Shown here: piece after piece, positions 8,943-62,441 of the stretch
How positions within the stretch are numbered: the first letter of the stretch is position 1
Layout of the letters: the number at the start of each line of letters is the position of its first letter
Assembly: GCA_041306075.1 (NCBI GenBank)
Contig: JBFYKH010000071.1
Location: 1,499 to 65,498 of the forward strand
Length of the DNA: 64,000 nucleotides
Reading direction: 5' to 3'
From: Candidatus Altiarchaeota archaeon
GTDB taxonomy: Archaea > Altiarchaeota > Altiarchaeia > IMC4 > SCGC-AAA252-I15
Notes under the pieces: generated by a model
The model's database searches: none
What the model was told of the DNA's origin: nothing
What the model saw: only the letters and a program-made list of their open reading frames with translations
Position numbers and translations under genes: made by a program

Positions 8943-10021
8943 TGGCGAACATAGCGTTCATAGGCGACTGCCACCTCGGCTTCCGGCACAGGGGGAAGGC
9001 GCAGAGGCTCAGGGACTACGCGGCCGCTTTCGAGGACGCGGTGTCGAAGGCGCTCTCCATGGGCCCGGACGCCGTGGTATTCCTCGGGGACCTGGTGCAC
9101 CACGCCAAGCCAGACCCCGTGAGCCTCCGGACCGTCATCAGGAGGCTGATGGGGGCCGCCGACCGCTGTCCGGTAATCGTGTGCATAGGCAACCACGAGA
9201 TAGAGGGGCACTTAGGCACCACGTACGCGCCGATATACGGCGACCTCCACCCGGCGATACACGTTTTGTCCGCCGAGAACCCGGAGGCCGCCGTCGACAT
9301 AGGCGGCAGGAGCTACCGCTTCCGCGGCTTCGAGTACACCCGCCAGAGGGAGTCGGCGCAGGAGAAGCTGAAGGCCGTCGCCGAGCGGCCGGGAGGCGAC
9401 GTGAACATACTATGCCTCCACCAGGCGGTCGAGAGGTACCTGAGCCCCTACGAGCTGTCGCTCCCCTCACTGCGGCGGGCGGCGGAGAAGCACGACCTCG
9501 TCATGTCCGGGCACGTCCACAAGCACCAGGAGATAACGGAGGTCTCGGACATAGCACCCGCGTACTACTGCGGCTCCACCGAGCGCGTCAGCTTCAACGA
9601 GGCCGGGAACCCGACAGGGTTCATGTTCTTCAGGGGCGACGACTTCAGGGAGCCCGAGTACGTGCCCGTTGACTCCGCCCCCATGTCGTACAGGCGCCTT
9701 GAGTTCGAGGGGGCCCCGGAGGAGCTCAACGCCCTCATACTCAGGACCGTCGAATCCGACGGCGCGAAGCTCCTGAGGATTGACGTGTCAGCCGACATAC
9801 GCGGCGACGCCATGGACGTCAGAAGGGACTGGGACGCATGCATGGGCGACAGGACGGTGCTCGAGGTGAACGTCGCCCCCAAGACGTCCGATTCCGAAGT
9901 CAGGCTCGAGCGCGCCCAGCTTAGCGAAGACCTCATCAGGGAATACTTCCAGAAGGCGGCCACCGGCGACAGGGAGCTGGAGGAACTGTGTGTCGAACTA
10001 TTCCGAAAGTACGGCTCGTGA
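8939..10021 (+). CDS. mre11: Mre11/SbcD-like DNA repair nuclease (calcineurin-like phosphoesterase)
   Basis: Phosphoesterase motifs I-V are present (GDCHLG, GDLVHH, GNHE, LHQ, GHVHKHQ). No rad50 is adjacent. Confidence 0.72.
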   Translation: MMANIAFIGDCHLGFRHRGKAQRLRDYAAAFEDAVSKALSMGPDAVVFLGDLVHHAKPDPVSLRTVIRRLMGAADRCPVIVCIGNHEIEGHLGTTYAPIYGDLHPAIHVLSAENPEAAVDIGGRSYRFRGFEYTRQRESAQEKLKAVAERPGGDVNILCLHQAVERYLSPYELSLPSLRRAAEKHDLVMSGHVHKHQEITEVSDIAPAYYCGSTERVSFNEAGNPTGFMFFRGDDFREPEYVPVDSAPMSYRRLEFEGAPEELNALILRTVESDGAKLLRIDVSADIRGDAMDVRRDWDACMGDRTVLEVNVAPKTSDSEVRLERAQLSEDLIREYFQKAATGDRELEELCVELFRKYGS

Positions 10022-10073
10022 GGGCGCGAGCCAACCCGTCATTCGACGGCAACCACGACCGTTTCGGGGTGTT

Positions 10074-10098
10074 ATAAGGCGTCAGGCAATATATTACC
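10074..10098 (+). promoter_or_regulatory. TATA boxes (ttataa / aatatatta) upstream of radB
   Basis: AT-rich elements 19-43 nt upstream of the ATG at 10117. Confidence 0.4.
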
Positions 10099-10116
10099 CT
10101 CGTCAACGGGTGCGGC

Positions 10117-10797
10117 ATGCTGAAGTTCAACAACGGATTCGACGGGCTCCTCGGGGGCGGCCTCATGGAGGGCGTCGTGACGCAGGTGTACGGTCCGCCA
10201 GCGTCGGGGAAGACCAACCTCGCCTTGCTCGCCTCCGTGAACGCGCTCGGCCAGGGGAAGGTCGTGTACGTGGACCCGGAGGGCGGCTTCAGCGTCGAGC
10301 GGCTCAGGCAGATGGCTGCTGAGCGGTTTCCCGAGGTCCTCGGCAACATGATGCTCCTGCAGCCCACGACGTTCGAGGAGCAGAAGGCGGCGGTCGCGAA
10401 GCTGGACGAGGCGATGGCGGGCGTGAAGGTGTCTCTTGTCGTCGTAGACAGCATAGCCATGCTCTACCGGATGGAGGAGGACAAGGACGTGAGGATGCTC
10501 GGCCGGATGCTCGCGCAGCTTCTGAGGATATCGCGCAGGTACGGGATACCCGTGCTCCTGACGAACCAGGTGTACAGTGAATTCGACACCAACATCATCC
10601 GCCCCATCGGCGGCCAGATAAGCGAATACTTCACCAAGAACATCGTGGAGCTAGGCCGCGGACAGGACGGCGGCCGCATCGCCACCCTAAGGCGGCACAT
10701 GAGCCTGCCGGAGGGGAAGACCCTGCCATTCATAATCACGCAGCGCGGAGTCGAGACGGCGCCGGCCGAAAACGCGCGACCCGGAGCCTCCGAGTAG
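10117..10797 (+). CDS. radB: DNA repair and recombination protein RadB
   Basis: 226-aa short RecA-family protein with a Walker A motif (GPPASGKT) and no N-terminal HhH domain. Confidence 0.85.
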   Translation: MLKFNNGFDGLLGGGLMEGVVTQVYGPPASGKTNLALLASVNALGQGKVVYVDPEGGFSVERLRQMAAERFPEVLGNMMLLQPTTFEEQKAAVAKLDEAMAGVKVSLVVVDSIAMLYRMEEDKDVRMLGRMLAQLLRISRRYGIPVLLTNQVYSEFDTNIIRPIGGQISEYFTKNIVELGRGQDGGRIATLRRHMSLPEGKTLPFIITQRGVETAPAENARPGASE

Positions 10798-16342: not shown

Positions 16343-17059
16343 ATGAGCCTGCGCGAATTGAAGCCCCCGCCTCTCCTTGAGCCGCCGCTTCCGGCGTCTG
16401 AATTCGGCTGGACCACGGTCCCGGAGGGTAGTATAGCATCCTTCGCGGAAATGGTGTTGCGCGGGGGGCTCGACTGCGCCAACCTGGGCGAATGCCACGT
16501 CGCCCTGGCGGGATTGGGCCGCCGCCTGGAGGTTCCGGAAAGCCAGTGGGGGACTATGGCGGAGGCGCTCGCCAAGCATCGGAAGGACGGCAACGCCCTC
16601 CTCACCGCATCCCTCCTCTTTTCCATGAATGCTTTAGGCCGGCCCCAGGAGATAACCCAAGATGATACGCGGCTCTTGTGCGCGGATTTGGACCGCTACC
16701 GCGCAAACAAGACGGGCCTGAGGGTAGCGGAGCTCCACTACCGCATGCACGGCATCGGAGTCGGCGTGGAGATTACGCCCGCCGACAGAAAGACAATGGT
16801 CGACGCGGTAGGCCAATACCGACTAAACGGCGACGGCCTCGGTGTGGCCGCCCAGCACTACTACCTCATGAAGCTCGGCTTCAAACAGGAAATCAAAATG
16901 CAGGACTGGGCCCTGATGCGCAAGCGCCTCGAAGAGGAGTCCAGGTTCGTTTCCGCGCCTGGATTGGAGCTTGCGTGCATGGTGTCGGAGCTTGCCAGGG
17001 AGGCCGGCGAAACCCGCCCAGCAAACGATATGCCGCCCCTGAAGAGGTTCACGCGATGA
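16343..17059 (+). CDS. Repeat protein of unknown function (3-4 copies of a ~40-aa G-[WL]-x-V-x-x-LHY-x-[LM]-x-x-[LI]-G-[IF]...E-I-T...DG unit; C-terminal MPPLKRFTR)
   Basis: 238 aa. Internal repeats are visible directly in the translation. Its stop overlaps the start of a paralogous gene (ATGA). Confidence 0.6.
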   Translation: MSLRELKPPPLLEPPLPASEFGWTTVPEGSIASFAEMVLRGGLDCANLGECHVALAGLGRRLEVPESQWGTMAEALAKHRKDGNALLTASLLFSMNALGRPQEITQDDTRLLCADLDRYRANKTGLRVAELHYRMHGIGVGVEITPADRKTMVDAVGQYRLNGDGLGVAAQHYYLMKLGFKQEIKMQDWALMRKRLEEESRFVSAPGLELACMVSELAREAGETRPANDMPPLKRFTR

Positions 17060-17796
17060 CGGTCAGAATCGCGCAGCTCAAGGAGCAGCCTCTCCTGTCT
17101 CCGCCCGCGGATAGGCCGGACCTGGCGGTCCCGCGGGACGTGGAGGACGCCATCCTCAAGGGGATAGCGGACTACCGGGGGGCGAAGGACGGATGGAACG
17201 TCATCAGGCTCCACTACTATGCCCTCCGTCTTGGCATACCGACCGTGGTCACCACGGCGGACGAGGAGCTGGCGCGGAAGGAGCATCACGAGGTCAGGTA
17301 CGGAGGAGGGAAGCCGTGGACCACCCACGCCGTAGGCGACTTCTACCTACAGATGAAGGCCATCGGCAGGAAAGCCCCCGTATTCACCACCGACGAGGAG
17401 AGAATGAGGAACACGTTCGACGATGACAGGAAACGCGACGGATACGGCCTCGCGCAGACGCTCTACCAGTTCCATGCGCTAGGCCTCAAGGAGGAGGCCA
17501 CTGACGCCGACCGGGAGAAGATGCTGTCCGCGCTCGAGGATGCGCGGCTTAACCTCCGCGGCTGGGGCGTCCTGAGGATGCACTACTGGCTGAGGGGGCT
17601 TGGCATCAGGGAGGAGATTACCGTGGATGACAAGGCCCTCTTCGAAGGGCGCATAAGGGAGGTCAGGGGCAAGGATAGCGTCCTCATGCTTGCCGAGGCC
17701 TACTGCCTGCGGCATGAGCTACTGTCGGACAAGGGCGCGAAGAATCCAGCCGAGACGTCGATGCCGCCCCTGAAGCGTTTCACTCGCTTTTCCTGA
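17056..17796 (+). CDS. Repeat protein of unknown function, paralog of 16343-17059 (4-5 repeat units, the same C-terminal MPPLKRFTR motif)
   Basis: The ORF-track entry 16678-17796 carries an Arg-rich artefactual N-terminus. The real start is the ATG at 17056 (MTVRIAQLKEQPLLSPP), which parallels the N-terminus of the upstream gene (LKPPPLLEPP). Confidence 0.6.
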   Translation: MTVRIAQLKEQPLLSPPADRPDLAVPRDVEDAILKGIADYRGAKDGWNVIRLHYYALRLGIPTVVTTADEELARKEHHEVRYGGGKPWTTHAVGDFYLQMKAIGRKAPVFTTDEERMRNTFDDDRKRDGYGLAQTLYQFHALGLKEEATDADREKMLSALEDARLNLRGWGVLRMHYWLRGLGIREEITVDDKALFEGRIREVRGKDSVLMLAEAYCLRHELLSDKGAKNPAETSMPPLKRFTRFS

Positions 17797-18775
17797 CGAC
17801 TATCTCCCAGTCGTGCTCGGAGAGCTGCCTCCTGTGTATTATCTTGTGGCCGTCGGTCTCCAGGCCGCGGGGTATGTCCTTGAGCGCCTCCCTGGTGTTG
17901 ACGACCACCCTCAGGACCTGCTCTATGCGGAGGCCGTCGATGGCCTCCTTCACCTTCAGGAAGTCGACGGGGGTGCCGTATTCCCTGAGGTCCAGTTCCC
18001 GGTCGACGGTGTAGTCCTCGTAGTATTCGCCCTTGATGTACGCCTTCGTCCTCTCGTGCTTAGGGTTGTGGAAGAGCTCCTTGGCGGGGCCGTGCTCGAT
18101 GAGGCTGCCAAGGTACAGGTATATGACGTGGTCTGCGAGCCTCTTGGCCTGGTGTATGTTGTGGGTGCTCATGATTATCGTGTAGTCGCGGCCGAGCCTC
18201 ATAATCTGGTCCTCTATCTTCCTCGACGACACGGGGTCGAGCGCGCTCGTCGCCTCGTCGCACAAGAGCACCTTCGGCTTGACGGCGAGGAGCCTCGCCA
18301 GGCTGAGCCGCTGCTGCTGGCCTATCGACAGCCTCGCCGCCGGCTCCCCGAGCCTGTTCTTGAGCTCGTCCCACAGCGCCGCGTTTACCAGGCTCTCTTT
18401 GACTAACCCGTCCAGGACGGCCTTGTCGCCCTCGCCGTGTATCCTCGGGCCGTATGCGACGTTGTCGTATATGGACATCGGCAGCGGGGAGGGCTTCTGC
18501 GTTATCATCCCCACCTTCGTCCTCAGCTCGGTCACGTCCACGGAGTCCTCGAGTATGTTCTCCCCCTCAAACATTATCCGCCCCCTCGCCTTCAGGCCCT
18601 CGTTGAAGTCTATGAACCTGTTGAAGCAGCGAAGGAAAATCGTCTTGCCCGAGCCGGAGGGCCCTATTACGCACACAATCTTCCGCTCAGGTATCTCGAG
18701 GCTGATGTCCTTCAGGAGCACCCCCTCCCTCGCGCTGACGGAGAGGCCTTCGACCCGTATTATCTCGCCGGTCAT
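17780..18775 (-). CDS. pstB: Phosphate ABC transporter ATP-binding protein PstB with a C-terminal TusA-like (Cys-less) domain
   Basis: Residues 1-255 are a typical PstB (Walker A GPSGSGKT, signature LSIGQQQRL, Walker B LLCDEATSALD). Residues 256-331 follow the TusA fold pattern (LDLREYGTPVDF...LRVVVNTREALKDIPRGLETDGHKII...WEIVVRK), with Thr in place of the catalytic Cys. Confidence 0.85.
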   Translation of the reverse strand: MTGEIIRVEGLSVSAREGVLLKDISLEIPERKIVCVIGPSGSGKTIFLRCFNRFIDFNEGLKARGRIMFEGENILEDSVDVTELRTKVGMITQKPSPLPMSIYDNVAYGPRIHGEGDKAVLDGLVKESLVNAALWDELKNRLGEPAARLSIGQQQRLSLARLLAVKPKVLLCDEATSALDPVSSRKIEDQIMRLGRDYTIIMSTHNIHQAKRLADHVIYLYLGSLIEHGPAKELFHNPKHERTKAYIKGEYYEDYTVDRELDLREYGTPVDFLKVKEAIDGLRIEQVLRVVVNTREALKDIPRGLETDGHKIIHRRQLSEHDWEIVVRKSE

Positions 18776-19623
18776 ACTACCCTGTTCCTCCTCGACGCCC
18801 TACCGAGCATCCTCGCGGCTGACGTTAGTACTAGTATGACGGCCAATAAAATCACGGCGGAGGCGTAGGCCCTCTCCTGCACCCCCTGGAAGGGGGTTCC
18901 GAACTGGAAGAATATGGCGAGGGGCAGGGACGCGGCCGGCTCCATGAGGGACGTCGGAATCTTGTCGGTGTATCCGGCGGTGAAGAGGATGGATGCGGCG
19001 TCGCCTATCCCCCGGCCGAACGCGATGATGACGCCCGTCAATATCCCGGGCGCCGCCTGCCTGAGCGTCACCGACCAGGTGGTCTCGAACCTCGTGGCGC
19101 CCACGGCATACGACACCTCCTTCAGCTCCTGCGGCACGGTCTGCAGTATCTCGTCTATGGAGCGCGTCATGATGGGGAAGACGACGAAGGCGAGCGATAT
19201 TATGCCCCCGAGGAGCGAAGCCCTCAGGCCGACGGAAAGCATGATGATGAAGCCGAAGGCGCCGTAGACTATGGACGGCACCCCCCATAGTATGTCCAGG
19301 ACGAGCCTCACAGCCTCCGCCCACCTGCCGCCCCCGCTGTATTCCCTCTGGAGGAAAAGCGCGGTCGGCAGGCTCATCACGAAGGCGAGGGCCGTCCCCC
19401 CGGCCGCCAGGTATATCGAGCCGACTATCGCGTTCAGGACCCCTCCCCCGCCGCCCAGGTAGAACCCGCTCCTCGGGGTCTCAGTCACCATCTCGACGCT
19501 GAGCGCGGGCAGGCCCTTCAGGAGGACGGCGGCAATCATCGCCAGGAGGCATAGGAGGACCAGGCTCACGGACAGGAGCCCCGCGGCCTTGAACGCCTCC
19601 TCATTGAGCCTCCTCCACTCCAT
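18772..19623 (-). CDS. pstA: Phosphate ABC transporter permease PstA
   Basis: 283-aa permease carrying the ABC transmembrane EAA-like motif. The start was set at MEWRRLNEE, with an ATGA overlap with the pstC stop. The ORF-track N-terminal extension is artefactual. Confidence 0.85.
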   Translation of the reverse strand: MEWRRLNEEAFKAAGLLSVSLVLLCLLAMIAAVLLKGLPALSVEMVTETPRSGFYLGGGGGVLNAIVGSIYLAAGGTALAFVMSLPTALFLQREYSGGGRWAEAVRLVLDILWGVPSIVYGAFGFIIMLSVGLRASLLGGIISLAFVVFPIMTRSIDEILQTVPQELKEVSYAVGATRFETTWSVTLRQAAPGILTGVIIAFGRGIGDAASILFTAGYTDKIPTSLMEPAASLPLAIFFQFGTPFQGVQERAYASAVILLAVILVLTSAARMLGRASRRNRVV

Positions 19624-20516
19624 CAGTACGCCTCCGCCTTCATCCTCATGAGCAATGCCCTTCCTACCGCGTCGAACGCGACGACTATGACGAGGAGCAG
19701 GAGCGCCGCGAACATCATCGCGGACTCGAAGTCGGGAATCGACATCATCTCCCCGTAGTTGTTGGCTATCAGCGCGGTTAGCGGGTAGACCGGGTCGAAA
19801 GGGCTCGTCGCGTGCATCGCGACGTTGCCCACCACCATGAGGACCGCCATCGTCTCCCCGAAGGCGCGGCTGAAGCCGAGTATGACTGCGGACATGATTC
19901 CCGGCGATGCCTTCCGGAGCACAACCCTCCCGACGGTCTGCAATCTCGTGGCCCCCAGGGCGAAGGACGCCTCCCTGAGGTCCTGCGGGACGGACGCTAT
20001 TATCTCCTCCATTATGGAGAGCATTATCGGCACGACCATCACCGACAAGACCAGCGCCCCGCTCAGTATGCAGTAGCCAGACGTTTCGTACCCGAACGCG
20101 GGCGCGAGGTAGTCCCTCACGAACGGCACGATGAACAGCACTCCCCAGAGGCCGAAGATGACCGACGGTATGCCGGCTAGCGTGTCGATGCCGGACTTCA
20201 CCAGGGAGCGGAACCTGCCGCCGGCATACTCCGCGAGGTATATCGCGCTCATCAGGCAGAGGGGCACGGAGAACAACATTGTGACGAGGGTCACGAGGAG
20301 CGTGCCTGTGATGAAAGGGTAGAACCCGAAGACCCCCCTGGACGGCTTCCACTCGGACGAGAAGAGGAGCTGGGACGGCGTCTCCAGGGAGAGTATGAGC
20401 CCGGACTTCAGGAGGAGGCCGAGCGTTATCAAAGCCAGTATGCTCACGGCGGCCAGCGCGAATATCCGGGTGGCCGCCCCGGCGGCCCTGTCGACCAGTA
20501 TGCTCCTCTTCCTCAT
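19623..20516 (-). CDS. pstC: Phosphate ABC transporter permease PstC
   Basis: Six-TM permease. The start was set at MRKRSILV, overlapping the pstS stop (ATGA). Confidence 0.85.
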   Translation of the reverse strand: MRKRSILVDRAAGAATRIFALAAVSILALITLGLLLKSGLILSLETPSQLLFSSEWKPSRGVFGFYPFITGTLLVTLVTMLFSVPLCLMSAIYLAEYAGGRFRSLVKSGIDTLAGIPSVIFGLWGVLFIVPFVRDYLAPAFGYETSGYCILSGALVLSVMVVPIMLSIMEEIIASVPQDLREASFALGATRLQTVGRVVLRKASPGIMSAVILGFSRAFGETMAVLMVVGNVAMHATSPFDPVYPLTALIANNYGEMMSIPDFESAMMFAALLLLVIVVAFDAVGRALLMRMKAEAY

Positions 20517-21460
20517 CTGAGCTTCTCCGCCTCGGCGGCTATGGCGTCGCCCTTCAGCGGTATGTATCCGGCCGGCAGGACATGGCTTTGCCCCCCCGTC
20601 AGAATCCACGCGATGAAGTCCCGGGTCGCCCCCTCAGGTTTCCCGAGGGTGACGATGTACAGGTCCCGGGCCGGCGGGGACGGAAACACCCCGTCGGCTA
20701 TGGCCTTGACGACGTCCGCCTTGTCCGAGTAGAAGTCCTCGTCAGCCGAGACGACTCCGTCGGAATCCAGGTCCAGGGGCACTATCATCAGATTGCCCAC
20801 CGGCTTCCCGGTCCTGTCGTCGTAGGCGAAGTTGAGGTTGTTGAATCCCATCCCCCTGACGTCCCTTGACACCGCCTCGGCGATGCCCGGGTCGGCGTTG
20901 ACCCCGACGCCCACCAGGTCCTCCTGCTTGACGCCGAGGTATTTACCCCAGACCTCCGCGGCGCCGCATGAATCCGAGCGCACATAGACTGAAATCCTGT
21001 CCTTCACGTCCGGCCTGCCGGAGAGCATACCCCATTCGGCGACGCCGCCGGTGACGAACACGCCCTTGAACTCCTCAGCCTTTACGCCGCGCCTGGCGAT
21101 GTCCGCCGCCACGGGGTTGCCCCGGTTCATGGTCGGGAGGACTGCGTCCTTGGCGACCGCGATGGGGTAGGCGCCCTTGCCGGTCTCGGACTCGTCGATG
21201 TCCCTCGACACCATCCCGATGTCCACGAGGCCGCCGAGCGCGTCCGCCATCCCCTTGCCCGCGCCGCCGGCGTTGACTTCGATGCTCACGCCGGGGTTCG
21301 CCTTCTGGTACTCGTCAGCCCACTTCACCATCAGGGGATACAGGGCCCACGCGCCAGAGACCCTCACGGTCTCCTTCGGCTCGGCCCCGCCGCCTGAAAG
21401 GAAGAGGGCGGCCCCGAAAGTCAAGACAACGCACACTGCCAGGATAATCTTCCAGTCCAT
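20513..21460 (-). CDS. pstS: Phosphate-binding protein PstS (periplasmic-binding-protein fold, N-terminal signal anchor)
   Basis: 315 aa with an N-terminal TM/signal segment and PBP-type motifs (GAGKGM, SRDI). First gene of the pstSCAB operon. Confidence 0.85.
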   Translation of the reverse strand: MDWKIILAVCVVLTFGAALFLSGGGAEPKETVRVSGAWALYPLMVKWADEYQKANPGVSIEVNAGGAGKGMADALGGLVDIGMVSRDIDESETGKGAYPIAVAKDAVLPTMNRGNPVAADIARRGVKAEEFKGVFVTGGVAEWGMLSGRPDVKDRISVYVRSDSCGAAEVWGKYLGVKQEDLVGVGVNADPGIAEAVSRDVRGMGFNNLNFAYDDRTGKPVGNLMIVPLDLDSDGVVSADEDFYSDKADVVKAIADGVFPSPPARDLYIVTLGKPEGATRDFIAWILTGGQSHVLPAGYIPLKGDAIAAEAEKLR

Positions 21461-38745: not shown

Positions 38746-38820
38746 GGGCCTGTAGCCAAGCCTGGATATGGCGTCAGCCTTCTAAGCTGAAGATCCCGGG
38801 TTCAAATCCCGGCGGGCCCG
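38746..38820 (+). tRNA. tRNA-Arg (anticodon TCT)
   Basis: A manual cloverleaf gives acceptor GGGCCTG/CGGGCCC (one G-U pair), D-stem GCCA/TGGC, anticodon stem TCAGC/GCTGA with loop CTTCTAA, and T-arm CCGGG-TTCAAAT-CCCGG. No CCA is encoded. A T6 run follows at 38842-38848. Confidence 0.8.
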
Positions 38821-61415: not shown

Positions 61416-62441
61416 ATGGCCTCGACAGTCTACTTTTGGCATGAAGCCTCGAATCTCCGCCAGGGCGCTGCGGAGTGTTTCAGGCGGGTGGCGTCCGACT
61501 TCGGCCGGGGACGGGTCGGCCTGAAGGTGCACTTCGGCGAGCGGGGAAACAAGACGCATGTGCGGCCGGACTGGCTCCTGGACGCGAAGGAGCTCCTGGG
61601 CGACCCCGTGTTCATCGAGTGCAACGTCATGTACCGGGGCATGAGGACGAGGCGGCAGGACCACTTGGAGACTGCGAGGAGTCACGGTTTCGGTTTCCTC
61701 CCCCTCGACATACTCGACGGCGAGACGGGGGAGGCGTATGTGGAGGTGCCTGTAAACGTCGGCAGGACGAAGACCGCGAAGCTCGGGGCCGGGATACAGG
61801 GGTACCAAAAACTGGTCGCGGTCTCCCATTTCAAGGGCCACATCGCCGCCGGATTCGGCGGCGCCCTCAAGAACGTCGGCATGGGCCTCGGCTCCCGCGC
61901 AGGCAAGATGGGCATGCACTCCATCATCTCCCCGGTGGTTTTGCCGAAGAAGTGCGTCGCCTGCGGCACTTGCGTCAGGGACTGCCCGGTCGACGCGATA
62001 ACGCTCTCGGACGTCGCGTACATCGACTCGAAGAAGTGCATAGGATGCGCCCACTGCATAGCGGTATGCCCAGAGTCGGCGATAGACATACCCTGGAACA
62101 TGTCGGGCGAAGTCAACAGGGCCCTGATGGAGAAGGTGGCGGAGTACTCCCTAGCGGCGATGGCGGGCAGGAGCTGGCGGTTCATCAACTTCATAACAGA
62201 CCTCACATACGACTGCGACTGCATGCCCACCCGCCAGAAGCCGTTCATGCCGGACATCGGCATAATACTATCGAGCGACCCGGTCGCAGCGGACCAGGCG
62301 AGCCTAGACCTCGTGAAGGACAGAAACGGCGGGAAGGACCCTTTCCTGAAGAAGCACGGAATCGACGGCTCATACATCCTCGAGTATGCGGAGACGATTG
62401 GCCTCGGCTCGAGGGAATACGGGCTTAAGCGGCTTTCTTAA
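61416..62441 (+). CDS. DUF362-domain protein with an inserted 2x[4Fe-4S] ferredoxin domain
   Basis: Two CxxCxxCxxxCP motifs (CVACGTCVRDCP, CIGCAHCIAVCP) embedded in a DUF362-type sequence (VKLHFGERGN ... HFKGH). Confidence 0.75.
   Translation: MASTVYFWHEASNLRQGAAECFRRVASDFGRGRVGLKVHFGERGNKTHVRPDWLLDAKELLGDPVFIECNVMYRGMRTRRQDHLETARSHGFGFLPLDILDGETGEAYVEVPVNVGRTKTAKLGAGIQGYQKLVAVSHFKGHIAAGFGGALKNVGMGLGSRAGKMGMHSIISPVVLPKKCVACGTCVRDCPVDAITLSDVAYIDSKKCIGCAHCIAVCPESAIDIPWNMSGEVNRALMEKVAEYSLAAMAGRSWRFINFITDLTYDCDCMPTRQKPFMPDIGIILSSDPVAADQASLDLVKDRNGGKDPFLKKHGIDGSYILEYAETIGLGSREYGLKRLS

What the first reader, a model, noticed from the sequence alone, without database searches (positions are those of the whole stretch)
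17783..18010. PstB ATPase fused to a cysteine-less TusA-like domain
The last ~75 residues of PstB follow the TusA/SirA two-layer fold pattern almost position by position (LDLREYG-TPVDF...LRVVVNTREALKDIPRGLETDGHKII...EIVVRK). The catalytic CPxP cysteine is replaced by Thr. A TusA-like regulatory or RNA-binding module on the phosphate-import ATPase is not standard pstB architecture. It could couple phosphate transport to another signal.
Basis: inference. Interest (0 to 1): 0.55.

Follow-up and report, generated by a model that had tools for sequence, protein, structure and literature searches.

The report
TusA domain on Pst-like ATPase
The ATPase subunit of a phosphate-transporter-like ABC importer carries a real but cysteine-less TusA (sulfur-carrier fold) domain, and related loci suggest the whole transporter family imports a sulfur oxyanion such as sulfate, not phosphate.

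Summary
The gene at 17780-18775 (minus strand, 331 aa) is one unbroken reading frame: a PstB-like ATP-binding domain followed by a TusA-fold domain (residues 256-331). The domain scores 47.8 bits against Pfam TusA (cutoff 28.6). Its model superposes on YeeD/TsuB and E. coli TusA. It has Thr-Pro where TusA has Cys-Pro, and no cysteine at all.

The fusion is not unique. At least 118 homologues from anaerobic archaea and bacteria share it, and 94 keep the Cys-Pro. Only this window's clade and two isolated cases lost it. The cysteine-less domain is still under purifying selection.

The "phosphate" label is doubtful. The binding protein falls far below the PstS cutoffs and lacks four phosphate-binding hydroxyl residues. 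PhoU is absent. Relatives sit beside sulfur-assimilation genes: ATP sulfurylase, APS kinase, PAPS reductase, sulfite-reductase-like genes, CysK, MetXYW, an OscA-like gene, ChrA and DsrE.

My reading is a Pst-derived sulfur-oxyanion importer whose TusA domain here is a non-catalytic accessory or regulatory module. The mechanism is inferred. I found no paper describing the fusion.

The parts
17780..18775 (-). Gene for the PstB-like ABC ATPase fused to a TusA-fold domain (331 aa plus stop codon)
   Evidence: Single ORF. Pfam ABC_tran plus TusA. 118 full-length homologues of 326-350 aa have the same architecture. The exact protein is on record in NCBI on a 78,982-bp contig.
18026..18775 (-). Nucleotide-binding domain, residues 1-250. 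Walker A is GPSGSGKT (38-45), Q-loop Q93, signature LSIGQQQR (149-156), Walker B/E174, H-loop H205.
   Evidence: TIGR00972 PstB scores 304.7 bits over residues 6-250. Foldseek finds E. coli PstB 9k3x_C at TMt 0.95 and 45% identity. The motif residues are invariant in alignment A3.
17783..18010 (-). Cysteine-less TusA-fold domain, residues 256-331
   Evidence: PF01206 at 47.8 bits. AF2 gives beta-alpha-beta-alpha-beta-beta. Foldseek finds YeeD and TusA. dN/dS is 0.23 and 0.12 against relatives.
17963..17974 (-). Codons for T268-P269-V270-D271, the remnant of the TusA Cys-Pro-x-Pro/Asn active-site motif
   Evidence: The aligned column holds Cys in 94 of 118 homologues. In the query clade it is T, P, A, S or E.
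18772..19623 (-). PstA-like permease (283 aa); overlaps the ATPase gene by 4 nt
   Evidence: TIGR00974 scores 199.5 bits against a 193.45 cutoff. The equivalent of PstA Arg220 is conserved.
19623..20516 (-). PstC-like permease (297 aa)
   Evidence: TIGR02138 scores 260 bits against a 196.45 cutoff. The equivalents of PstC Arg237 and Glu241 are conserved.
20513..21460 (-). Divergent PstS-like substrate-binding protein (315 aa) with motifs VSGAWALYP, AGGAGKG, DIGMVSRD and RSDSCGA
   Evidence: Pfam PBP_like_2 at 97 bits. The PstS-family model TIGR02136 gives only 86.7 bits against a 206.6 cutoff. The motifs are conserved in all SBPs of these operons that cover those stretches, and they differ from E. 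coli and C. perfringens PstS.

Best explanation
The feature is the C-terminal domain of the ATPase subunit of a four-gene, translationally coupled ABC importer (binding protein, two permeases, ATPase).

Shown: the domain has the TusA fold. It is appended exactly where TusA-less ATPases of the same subfamily end (...AYL.GE[I/V]S). It lacks the sulfur-carrying cysteine. It is nevertheless conserved under purifying selection.

Inferred from relatives: the transporter belongs to a Pst-derived subfamily marked by a distinctive binding protein (SGAWALYP, AGGAGKG, RSD.CGA). That subfamily is repeatedly encoded inside sulfur-assimilation clusters. It therefore most likely imports sulfate, thiosulfate or a similar sulfur oxyanion rather than phosphate.

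Inferred mechanism: in most relatives the fused TusA domain keeps its Cys-Pro. There it probably links transport to cytoplasmic sulfur trafficking or sulfur status. In this window's lineage the cysteine was lost and the active-site loop was remodelled to a new conserved 'LREYG' motif. Here the domain most likely acts without covalent sulfur chemistry. It would be an accessory or regulatory module beneath the ATPase dimer, placed like the C-terminal regulatory domains of MetN, ModC or MalK, and it would modulate ATPase closure or dock a partner.
For: Architecture and fold.

Family and cysteine status. Cys is present in 94 of 118 homologues. The Cys-less clade is monophyletic in the NJ tree.

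Selection: within the Cys-less clade the C-domain is 70% identical on average and the NBD 75%, the same as in the Cys clade (70.5% and 76.6%). Between clades the NBD is 59% identical and the C-domain only 38%. dN/dS of the C-domain is 0.23 (vs L004) and 0.12 (vs L012).

Placement: Foldseek aligns the full model with MetN over about 350 columns, including its C2 domain. TusA-less subfamily ATPases stop at the junction.

Sulfur link in TusA-fused loci: 15 of 46 informative non-redundant loci carry sulfur-related neighbours. These include CysK (487 bits vs a 351 cutoff), O-acetylhomoserine sulfhydrylase, MetX, MetW, PAPS reductase, NIR_SIR/Fer4, DsrE_2, Rrf2, SerA and ChrA inside the operon. An OscA-like 'sulfur starvation response' gene lies directly upstream in five loci.

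Sulfur link in TusA-less relatives with the same binding-protein motifs: L084 reads PAPS reductase, ATP sulfurylase, transporter, sulfite-reductase-like gene, and further on a stand-alone TusA. L087 reads ATP sulfurylase, APS kinase, transporter.

Against phosphate: the SBP scores 86.7 bits against a 206.6 cutoff. The equivalents of T10, S38, S139 and T141 are W/F, A, A/C/S and A in every one of these operons' SBPs that spans those positions. PhoU is absent from the window and found only once, as a distant fragment, in all loci.
Against: PstC and PstA pass NCBIfam equivalog cutoffs. The membrane phosphate-site residues named for E. coli PstSCAB (PstC R237 and E241, PstA R220; PMC12976172) are conserved. 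Six bacterial loci carry a Porin_O_P gene and one carries PsiE, which are phosphate-flavoured names. All sulfur-context evidence comes from relatives. The seven loci of the Cys-less clade, including this window, have only housekeeping neighbours. No ligand, activity or oligomeric state was measured. The orientation of the two domains in the model is uncertain (pTM 0.75). A regulatory role is an analogy, not a result.
Confidence: 0.45

Rival explanations
1. This is a genuine high-affinity phosphate importer. The TusA-like domain is a phosphate-homeostasis regulator on PstB, for example replacing PhoU. This is essentially the first reader's reading.
For: PstC and PstA are above equivalog cutoffs and PstB is close to its cutoff. 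The transmembrane Arg/Glu residues are conserved. PhoU is absent next to these operons, so something else could regulate them. Porin_O_P and PsiE occur in some bacterial loci.
Against: The binding protein is far below the PstS cutoffs and lacks four phosphate-contacting hydroxyls. Recurrent neighbours are sulfate-activation, sulfate-reduction and Cys/Met-biosynthesis genes, not Pho genes. A sulfur-carrier fold with a conserved Cys-Pro in 94 of 118 members has no obvious role in phosphate sensing.
Confidence: 0.2
2. In the family, the TusA domain works like YeeD/TsuB with YeeE/TsuA. Its cysteine captures the imported thiosulfate or sulfane sulfur at the cytoplasmic exit. In this window's lineage that function is dead, and the domain survives only as a structural part of the ATPase.
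For: The closest structural match is YeeD in the YeeE-YeeD complex. Natural single-chain YeeE-YeeD fusions exist, and the YeeD cysteine is essential (PMC11073785). DsrE_2, CysK and stand-alone TusA genes occur in related loci. The cysteine position is unconstrained in the query clade (T, P, A, S or E).
Against: The Cys-less domain is as conserved as the Cys-bearing one, and it has acquired a new conserved loop motif (LREYG, NTREAL[R/K]DIP). That points to a retained or new function rather than mere scaffolding. TusA-less ATPases of the same subfamily work without the domain, so it is not structurally required.
Confidence: 0.2
3. The domain binds RNA or nucleic acid, following the old SirA/IF3-C-like idea.
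For: Only weak fold resemblance to IF3 C-terminal domains, far down the Foldseek list (E about 0.04-0.06).
Against: The best matches are all TusA/YeeD proteins. No nucleic-acid-related neighbours or motifs were seen.
Confidence: 0.03
4. The fusion is an annotation or assembly artefact: a separate tusA gene read through from pstB.
For: None found.
Against: The frame is unbroken. The same length and junction occur in more than 100 independent homologues from many samples and phyla. The identical protein is on record in NCBI.
Confidence: 0.01

Closest known systems
E. coli PstB within PstSCAB (PDB 9k3s, 9k3x; PMC12976172)
   Same: The ATP-binding domain fold matches, at 44-45% identity. The operon order is binding protein, two permeases, ATPase. 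The permease Arg/Glu residues are conserved.
   Different: E. coli PstB has no C-terminal domain (257 aa). It has a phoU gene downstream. It has a canonical PstS pocket. Here PhoU is absent and the binding protein is divergent.
MetN of the MetNI methionine importer (PDB 3tui, 3dhw), and more generally ModC, MalK and CysA-type ATPases with C-terminal regulatory domains
   Same: An extra alpha/beta domain directly follows the ATP-binding domain. Foldseek aligns the two-domain model with MetN over about 350 columns. From established knowledge, these domains mediate trans-inhibition by the cytoplasmic product.
   Different: The appended fold is TusA (beta-alpha-beta-alpha-beta-beta), not NIL/ACT-like or TOBE. 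The domain orientation differs (rmsd about 10 A). No ligand is known.
YeeE/YeeD (TsuA/TsuB) thiosulfate uptake system, including natural YeeE-YeeD fusions (PDB 8j4c, 8k1r; PMC11073785)
   Same: A TusA-family module is physically attached to a sulfur-oxyanion transporter. It is the best structural match for the domain (TMq 0.87).
   Different: The transporter type is different (YeeE channel-like protein versus ABC importer). The YeeD cysteine is essential, whereas this domain has none.
E. coli TusA (PDB 1dcj, 3lvj), Pfam PF01206
   Same: The fold and the family profile match, including the conserved D-x-P...G-H and W-E-I regions.
   Different: TusA is a stand-alone protein with a catalytic Cys-Pro-x-Pro motif. 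Here the module is fused and reads Thr-Pro-Val-Asp.
Bacillus subtilis CysP, a PiT-family (phosphate transporter family) protein that carries sulfate (reviewed in PMC5840216)
   Same: It is a precedent for a phosphate-transporter family member recruited to sulfate uptake. It is recognised by its operon with sulfate-assimilation genes and by loss of phosphate-critical residues.
   Different: It belongs to an unrelated transporter class (secondary carrier) and has no TusA domain.

Membership tests
TusA family (Pfam PF01206) | Profile match above the gathering cutoff over the whole domain | tested here: met
   47.8 bits against 28.6, profile positions 1-70 of 70.
TusA family (Pfam PF01206) | Two-layer beta-alpha-beta-alpha-beta-beta fold | tested here: met
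   AF2 pLDDT is 91. Foldseek finds YeeD (TMq 0.87) and TusA (TMq 0.81).
TusA family (Pfam PF01206) | Conserved active-site cysteine in the Cys-Pro-x-Pro motif | tested here: not met
   The motif here is Thr268-Pro-Val-Asp, and the domain has no cysteine. 94 of 118 homologues do have Cys-Pro.
TusA family (Pfam PF01206) | Persulfide or thiosulfonate carrier activity | not testable with these tools
   This needs biochemistry. It is chemically impossible at this site without a cysteine.
PstB, phosphate ABC transporter ATPase (TIGR00972) | Equivalog model score at or above the curated cutoff | tested here: not met
   304.7 bits against 343.2, a near miss.
PstB, phosphate ABC transporter ATPase (TIGR00972) | Encoded with PstC, PstA and a PstS binding protein | tested here: inconclusive
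   PstC (260 vs 196) and PstA (199.5 vs 193) pass. The binding protein fails (86.7 vs 206.6) and has an altered pocket.
PstB, phosphate ABC transporter ATPase (TIGR00972) | Association with PhoU or the Pho regulon | tested here: not met
   The window has no PhoU. One distant fragment was found among all loci.
PstB, phosphate ABC transporter ATPase (TIGR00972) | Transports orthophosphate | not testable with these tools
   This needs binding and transport assays.
ABC importer ATPases with a C-terminal regulatory domain (MetN, ModC, MalK class) | An extra domain immediately after the ATP-binding domain | tested here: met
ABC importer ATPases with a C-terminal regulatory domain (MetN, ModC, MalK class) | Regulatory domain of NIL/ACT or TOBE fold that binds the transported product (trans-inhibition) | tested here: not met
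   The fold is TusA. Ligand binding was not testable.
YeeE/YeeD (TsuA/TsuB) thiosulfate system | YeeE-type membrane protein plus a TusA-like partner with an essential cysteine | tested here: not met
   The permeases are PstC/PstA-type, and the domain has no cysteine.
CysPTWA / Sbp sulfate-thiosulfate ABC transporter (SulT) | Sbp/CysP-type binding protein and CysT/CysW permeases | tested here: not met
   The SBP hits SBP_bac_11 only at E 0.13. CysT/CysW models score 28-53 bits against cutoffs of 240 or more.

The most novel reading that the evidence does not exclude
Pst-type ABC transporters with the SGAWALYP / AGGAGKG / RSD.CGA binding protein are an unrecognised class of sulfate or thiosulfate importers, currently annotated as phosphate transporters. 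In one large branch the ATPase has captured a TusA domain that gates import according to cytoplasmic sulfur status, through modification of its cysteine. This window's archaeal lineage has evolved a cysteine-independent version of that gate.
Probability: 0.25. Interest if true: 0.75.

Novelty: new variant of a known kind. Interest (0 to 1): 0.6.

Why it matters
If the reading is right, genes routinely annotated as 'phosphate transport system' in Methanoperedens, anammox bacteria, Omnitrophota, Chloroflexi and several uncultured archaeal lineages are really the missing sulfur-oxyanion uptake step of their assimilatory sulfate pathways. That would change phosphorus and sulfur budgets inferred from metagenomes.

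It would also add a new kind of accessory domain, a sulfur-carrier fold, to the C-terminal domains known to control ABC importers. It offers a natural pair, Cys-bearing and Cys-less, for testing how such a domain works.

If the reading is wrong and the system carries phosphate, it would be a PhoU-independent way of regulating Pst. That would also be new.

Tried and rejected
- **Representative-library search.** Searching 1.84 billion representatives with the C-domain returned mostly stand-alone 75-130 aa TusA proteins at 30-40% identity. Only one fused protein appeared, so the search gave no census of the fusion.
- **First genome scan.** It failed because the 20-sequence alignment had no conserved stretch. 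It was repeated with 9 sequences. That pattern is narrow, so the 18 genome loci and 53 metagenome loci are lower bounds.
- **Exact-protein look-ups.** The look-ups for the window's ATPase and binding protein found no gene record. A 94%-identical relative (L004) was used for context instead.
- **Rfam scans.** Scans of 11 bacterial loci and of the window found no SAM or other sulfur- or phosphate-related riboswitch.
- **Window ORF 61416-62438.** It looked like a sulfite reductase by phmmer. It is in fact DUF362 plus ferredoxin.
- **Sulfur-gene seeds against the window.** Seeds for CysK, CysH, MetY, MetX, DsrE, ChrA, SerA and Rrf2 found nothing else in the 64 kb.
- **Small proteins.** The small conserved proteins upstream in Methanoperedens loci and the two repeat proteins downstream in the window have no Pfam match.
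- **Literature.** Searches for PstB+TusA, TusA-like ABC transporters and DUF2292, plus reading of papers on ANME and methanogen sulfur assimilation, found no description of the fusion or of a Pst-type sulfate transporter.
- **AFDB fold search.** The library was not available.
- **Taxonomy.** The source organism could not be named. The nearest named relatives are MAGs labelled Altiarchaeota.
Full report
**1. The observation**

The minus-strand ORF 17780-18775 encodes a 331-aa protein. Pfam finds ABC_tran at residues 21-177 and TusA (PF01206) at residues 259-329 over the full profile. TusA scores 43.7 bits in context and 47.8 bits (E 1.3e-12) on the C-terminal 84 residues alone, against a 28.6 cutoff. 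NCBIfam matches PstB (TIGR00972) over residues 6-250 at 304.7 bits, just below the 343.2 cutoff.

An AlphaFold model built on 118 homologues has mean pLDDT 90.7. It shows beta(257-262), alpha(270-280), beta(287-292), alpha(295-307), beta(311-317), beta(323-328). A separate model of the isolated domain has pLDDT 91.3. It superposes best on YeeD/TsuB in the YeeE-YeeD complex (8j4c, 8k1r; TMq 0.87, rmsd 1.2 A), then on E. coli TusA (1dcj, 3lvj; TMq 0.81).

The position of the TusA cysteine is Thr268, and the domain has no cysteine.

**2. The gene's setting**

Upstream on the same strand lie three genes:
- a PBP_like_2 binding protein (20513-21460);
- a PstC-like permease (19623-20516);
- a PstA-like permease (18772-19623).

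Successive genes overlap by 4, 1 and 4 nt. PstC (260 bits vs 196) and PstA (199.5 vs 193) pass NCBIfam equivalog cutoffs. The binding protein reaches only 86.7 bits against a 206.6 cutoff for the PstS-family model. The window has no PhoU homologue and no second PstB-like ATPase.

**3. The fusion is a family**

All 120 best homologues, down to 49% identity, carry PF00005 plus PF01206. The full-length ones are 326-350 aa. Source names include Altiarchaeota, Methanoperedenaceae, Chloroflexi, Jettenia, Omnitrophica and Poribacteria.

A narrow peptide pattern recovered 18 loci in 185,579 species genomes. These are mostly Ca. Methanoperedens, with Brocadiaceae/Planctomycetia, Omnitrophota, Thermodesulfobacteriota and Chloroflexi. 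The same approach recovered 53 loci in metagenomes.

In 94 of 118 full-length homologues the TusA Cys-Pro is intact. The family consensus reads NLKG..CP.NF ... VDDP.AV.EVPRGME.DGH ... DWEI. The cysteine is missing only in three places:
- the query's own clade of 23 sequences, where the position is T, P, A, S or E;
- one bacterial outlier (P0116);
- one metagenomic locus (L077).

**4. The cysteine-less domain is not decaying**

Within the Cys-less clade the C-domain averages 70% identity and the ATP-binding domain 75%. This is the same as in the Cys-bearing clade (70.5% and 76.6%). Between clades the ATP-binding domain is 59% identical but the C-domain only 38%. A new conserved loop (LREYG, NTREAL[R/K]DIP) replaces LKG..C and DDPTAVTEVP.

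dN/dS for the C-domain is 0.23 against a 94%-identical relative and 0.12 against a 71%-identical one. The ATP-binding domain gives 0.06 and 0.10. The pattern is a functional shift followed by purifying selection.

**5. What the transporter carries: evidence for phosphate**

The permeases are PstC/PstA by profile. The residues reported to bind phosphate in the E. coli membrane domain are conserved: PstC R237 and E241, and PstA R220 (PMC12976172). Six bacterial loci have a Porin_O_P gene and one has PsiE.

**6. What the transporter carries: evidence against phosphate**

*The binding protein.* Its motifs replace the classical phosphate-contacting hydroxyls of E. coli PstS. From established knowledge of the PstS structure, these are T10, S38, S139 and T141. 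Here they are W/F, A, A/C/S and A. The same holds in every one of these operons' binding proteins that covers these motifs, about 20 in all. The short PstS of Clostridium perfringens (4gd5) keeps GSTS, GSS and GSGT at those positions. The Asp after Ser-Arg is variable in the family (D, A, E or T).

*PhoU.* It appears only once, as a fragment 3 kb away on the other strand, among about 80 loci.

*Neighbours of TusA-fused operons.* Of 46 non-redundant loci with any flanking gene, 15 carry sulfur-related neighbours. They include:
- CysK inside the operon (TIGR01139, 487 bits vs 351);
- O-acetylhomoserine sulfhydrylase, MetX and MetW;
- PAPS reductase;
- NIR_SIR/ferredoxin proteins;
- a DsrE_2-like gene inside the operon;
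- Rrf2 regulators and SerA;
- a ChrA chromate-efflux gene inside the operon in three loci;
- a small DUF2292 gene matching NCBIfam 'sulfur starvation response protein OscA' (E 2.9e-7, below the family cutoff), directly upstream in five bacterial loci.

*The wider binding-protein family.* It has 7,388 hits and extends to operons whose ATPase has no TusA domain (250-254 aa). Four such loci were sampled:
- L084 reads PAPS reductase, ATP sulfurylase, binding protein, permease, permease, ATPase, then a sulfite-reductase-like gene and, 3 kb on, a stand-alone TusA gene.
- L087 reads ATP sulfurylase, phosphodiesterase-family gene, APS kinase, then the transporter, all on one strand.
- L083 has an FGE-sulfatase gene next to the binding protein.
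- L086 has nothing telling.

All four have the same binding-protein motifs. Their ATPases are 60-67% identical to Cys-bearing fused ATPases and 52-56% identical to the window's. All are only 44-48% identical to E. coli PstB. They end exactly where the TusA domain begins. In an unbootstrapped NJ tree the whole subfamily is separated from E. coli PstB by a long branch.

*ChrA.* From established knowledge, chromate enters cells through sulfate transporters. A ChrA efflux gene inside the operon fits a sulfate importer.

I conclude that the subfamily most probably imports sulfate, thiosulfate or a close analogue. This is context inference, not measurement. The window's own clade has only housekeeping neighbours: chorismate synthase, malic enzyme, fumarase and AlaRS.

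**7. What the TusA domain does**

A sulfur-carrier fold on a sulfur-oxyanion importer makes biological sense. Two models fit the Cys-bearing majority.

- *Capture.* The cysteine captures or processes the imported species. YeeD does this for the YeeE thiosulfate channel. There the cysteine is essential and natural YeeE-YeeD fusions exist (PMC11073785).
- *Regulation.* The domain reports sulfur status, through persulfide or thiosulfonate on the cysteine, and restrains the ATPase. This would work like the C-terminal domains of MetN, ModC and MalK. Foldseek aligns the two-domain model with MetN across its C2 domain.

For the window's protein, covalent sulfur chemistry is excluded. The domain is nevertheless conserved with a remodelled loop. 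I therefore favour a non-catalytic accessory or regulatory role. The 'inert remnant' alternative is weakened by the conservation and by the existence of functional-looking TusA-less ATPases in the same subfamily. None of this was testable here.

**8. Comparison with known systems and novelty**

The protein is a structural member of Pfam TusA, but it fails the defining cysteine. It is PstB-like, but it misses the equivalog cutoff and lacks PhoU and PstS partners. It resembles regulated ABC ATPases in layout but not in the fold of the extra domain. It is not a CysPTWA-type sulfate transporter.

Sources annotate these genes as 'phosphate transport system ATP-binding protein' or with generic names. 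A review of sulfate transporters lists SulT, SulP, CysP (PiT), DASS and CysZ but no Pst-type system. It does describe B. subtilis CysP as a phosphate-transporter-family protein that carries sulfate (PMC5840216). Literature searches found no description of the fusion.

I rate it a new variant of known kinds. It has moderate to good interest because the hypothesis is directly testable.

Noticed in passing
window 16343-17059 (+) and 17056-17796 (+): Two tandem paralogous genes (33% identical). Each is built of repeats of about 40 residues (..DG[WY]xV..[LM]HY[YW]L..LGI..E[IV]T..D..) and ends in MPPLKRFTR. Neither has a Pfam match. Both are conserved beside the transporter in the 94%-identical relative L004. 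The second gene's 3' end overlaps the 3' end of the ATPase gene by 17 nt (convergent).
   Followed up: partly
window 20513-21460 (-), and the binding proteins of loci L001-L087: This is a large family of PstS-like binding proteins (7,388 hits). Its invariant motifs are VSGAWALYP, AGGAGKG, DIGMVSR. and RSD.CGA. It lacks the classical phosphate-contacting Ser/Thr residues and is annotated as phosphate-binding in public sources.
   Followed up: partly
L084 7722-17000 and L087 659-7704: These are TusA-less versions of the same transporter embedded in sulfate-activation and sulfate-reduction operons. L084 has PAPS reductase, ATP sulfurylase, a sulfite-reductase-like gene and a stand-alone TusA. L087 has ATP sulfurylase and APS kinase.
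   Followed up: partly
L021 4543-5851 and 9054-11535 (also L020): In Thermodesulfobacteriota loci the operon contains an HPr plus receiver-domain fusion protein and a DsrE_2-like protein between the binding protein and pstC. An OmpR-type regulator and a sCache/HAMP/PAS histidine kinase follow it.
   Followed up: no
L013 8374-9312: An HNH/RRXRR endonuclease gene is inserted between pstA and the fused ATPase gene in a Methanoperedenaceae genome.
   Followed up: no
L029 16841-16955 (+) and 20158-20272 (-): Two c-di-GMP-I-GGC riboswitch matches above the gathering score lie a few kb downstream of the transporter in an anammox Planctomycetia genome.
   Followed up: no
L015 762-1430, L001 5502-6288, L028 5936-6259, L070 615-1205: Methanoperedens-type loci share two small conserved genes upstream of the binding protein: a helical protein of about 93-160 aa and a protein of about 97-107 aa. 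Neither has a Pfam match. They may be regulators.
   Followed up: no
L077 (ATPase 9311-10303) and protein P0116: These are independent losses of the TusA cysteine outside the query clade. L077 reads TKGNRSPYNF. P0116 has the loop KDVKNIDH.
   Followed up: no
window 38746-38820 (+); window 61416-62438 (+): The first is a tRNA gene, the only Rfam match in the window. The second is a DUF362 plus 4Fe-4S ferredoxin protein that at first looked like a sulfite reductase by sequence search.
   Followed up: yes
L012 3999-5827 (-): A relative in the Cys-less clade has mevalonate-3-kinase-like and MVD-like genes nearby (Thermoplasma-type mevalonate pathway). This hints at the lineage's affiliation despite 'Altiarchaeota' labels on related MAGs.
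   Followed up: no
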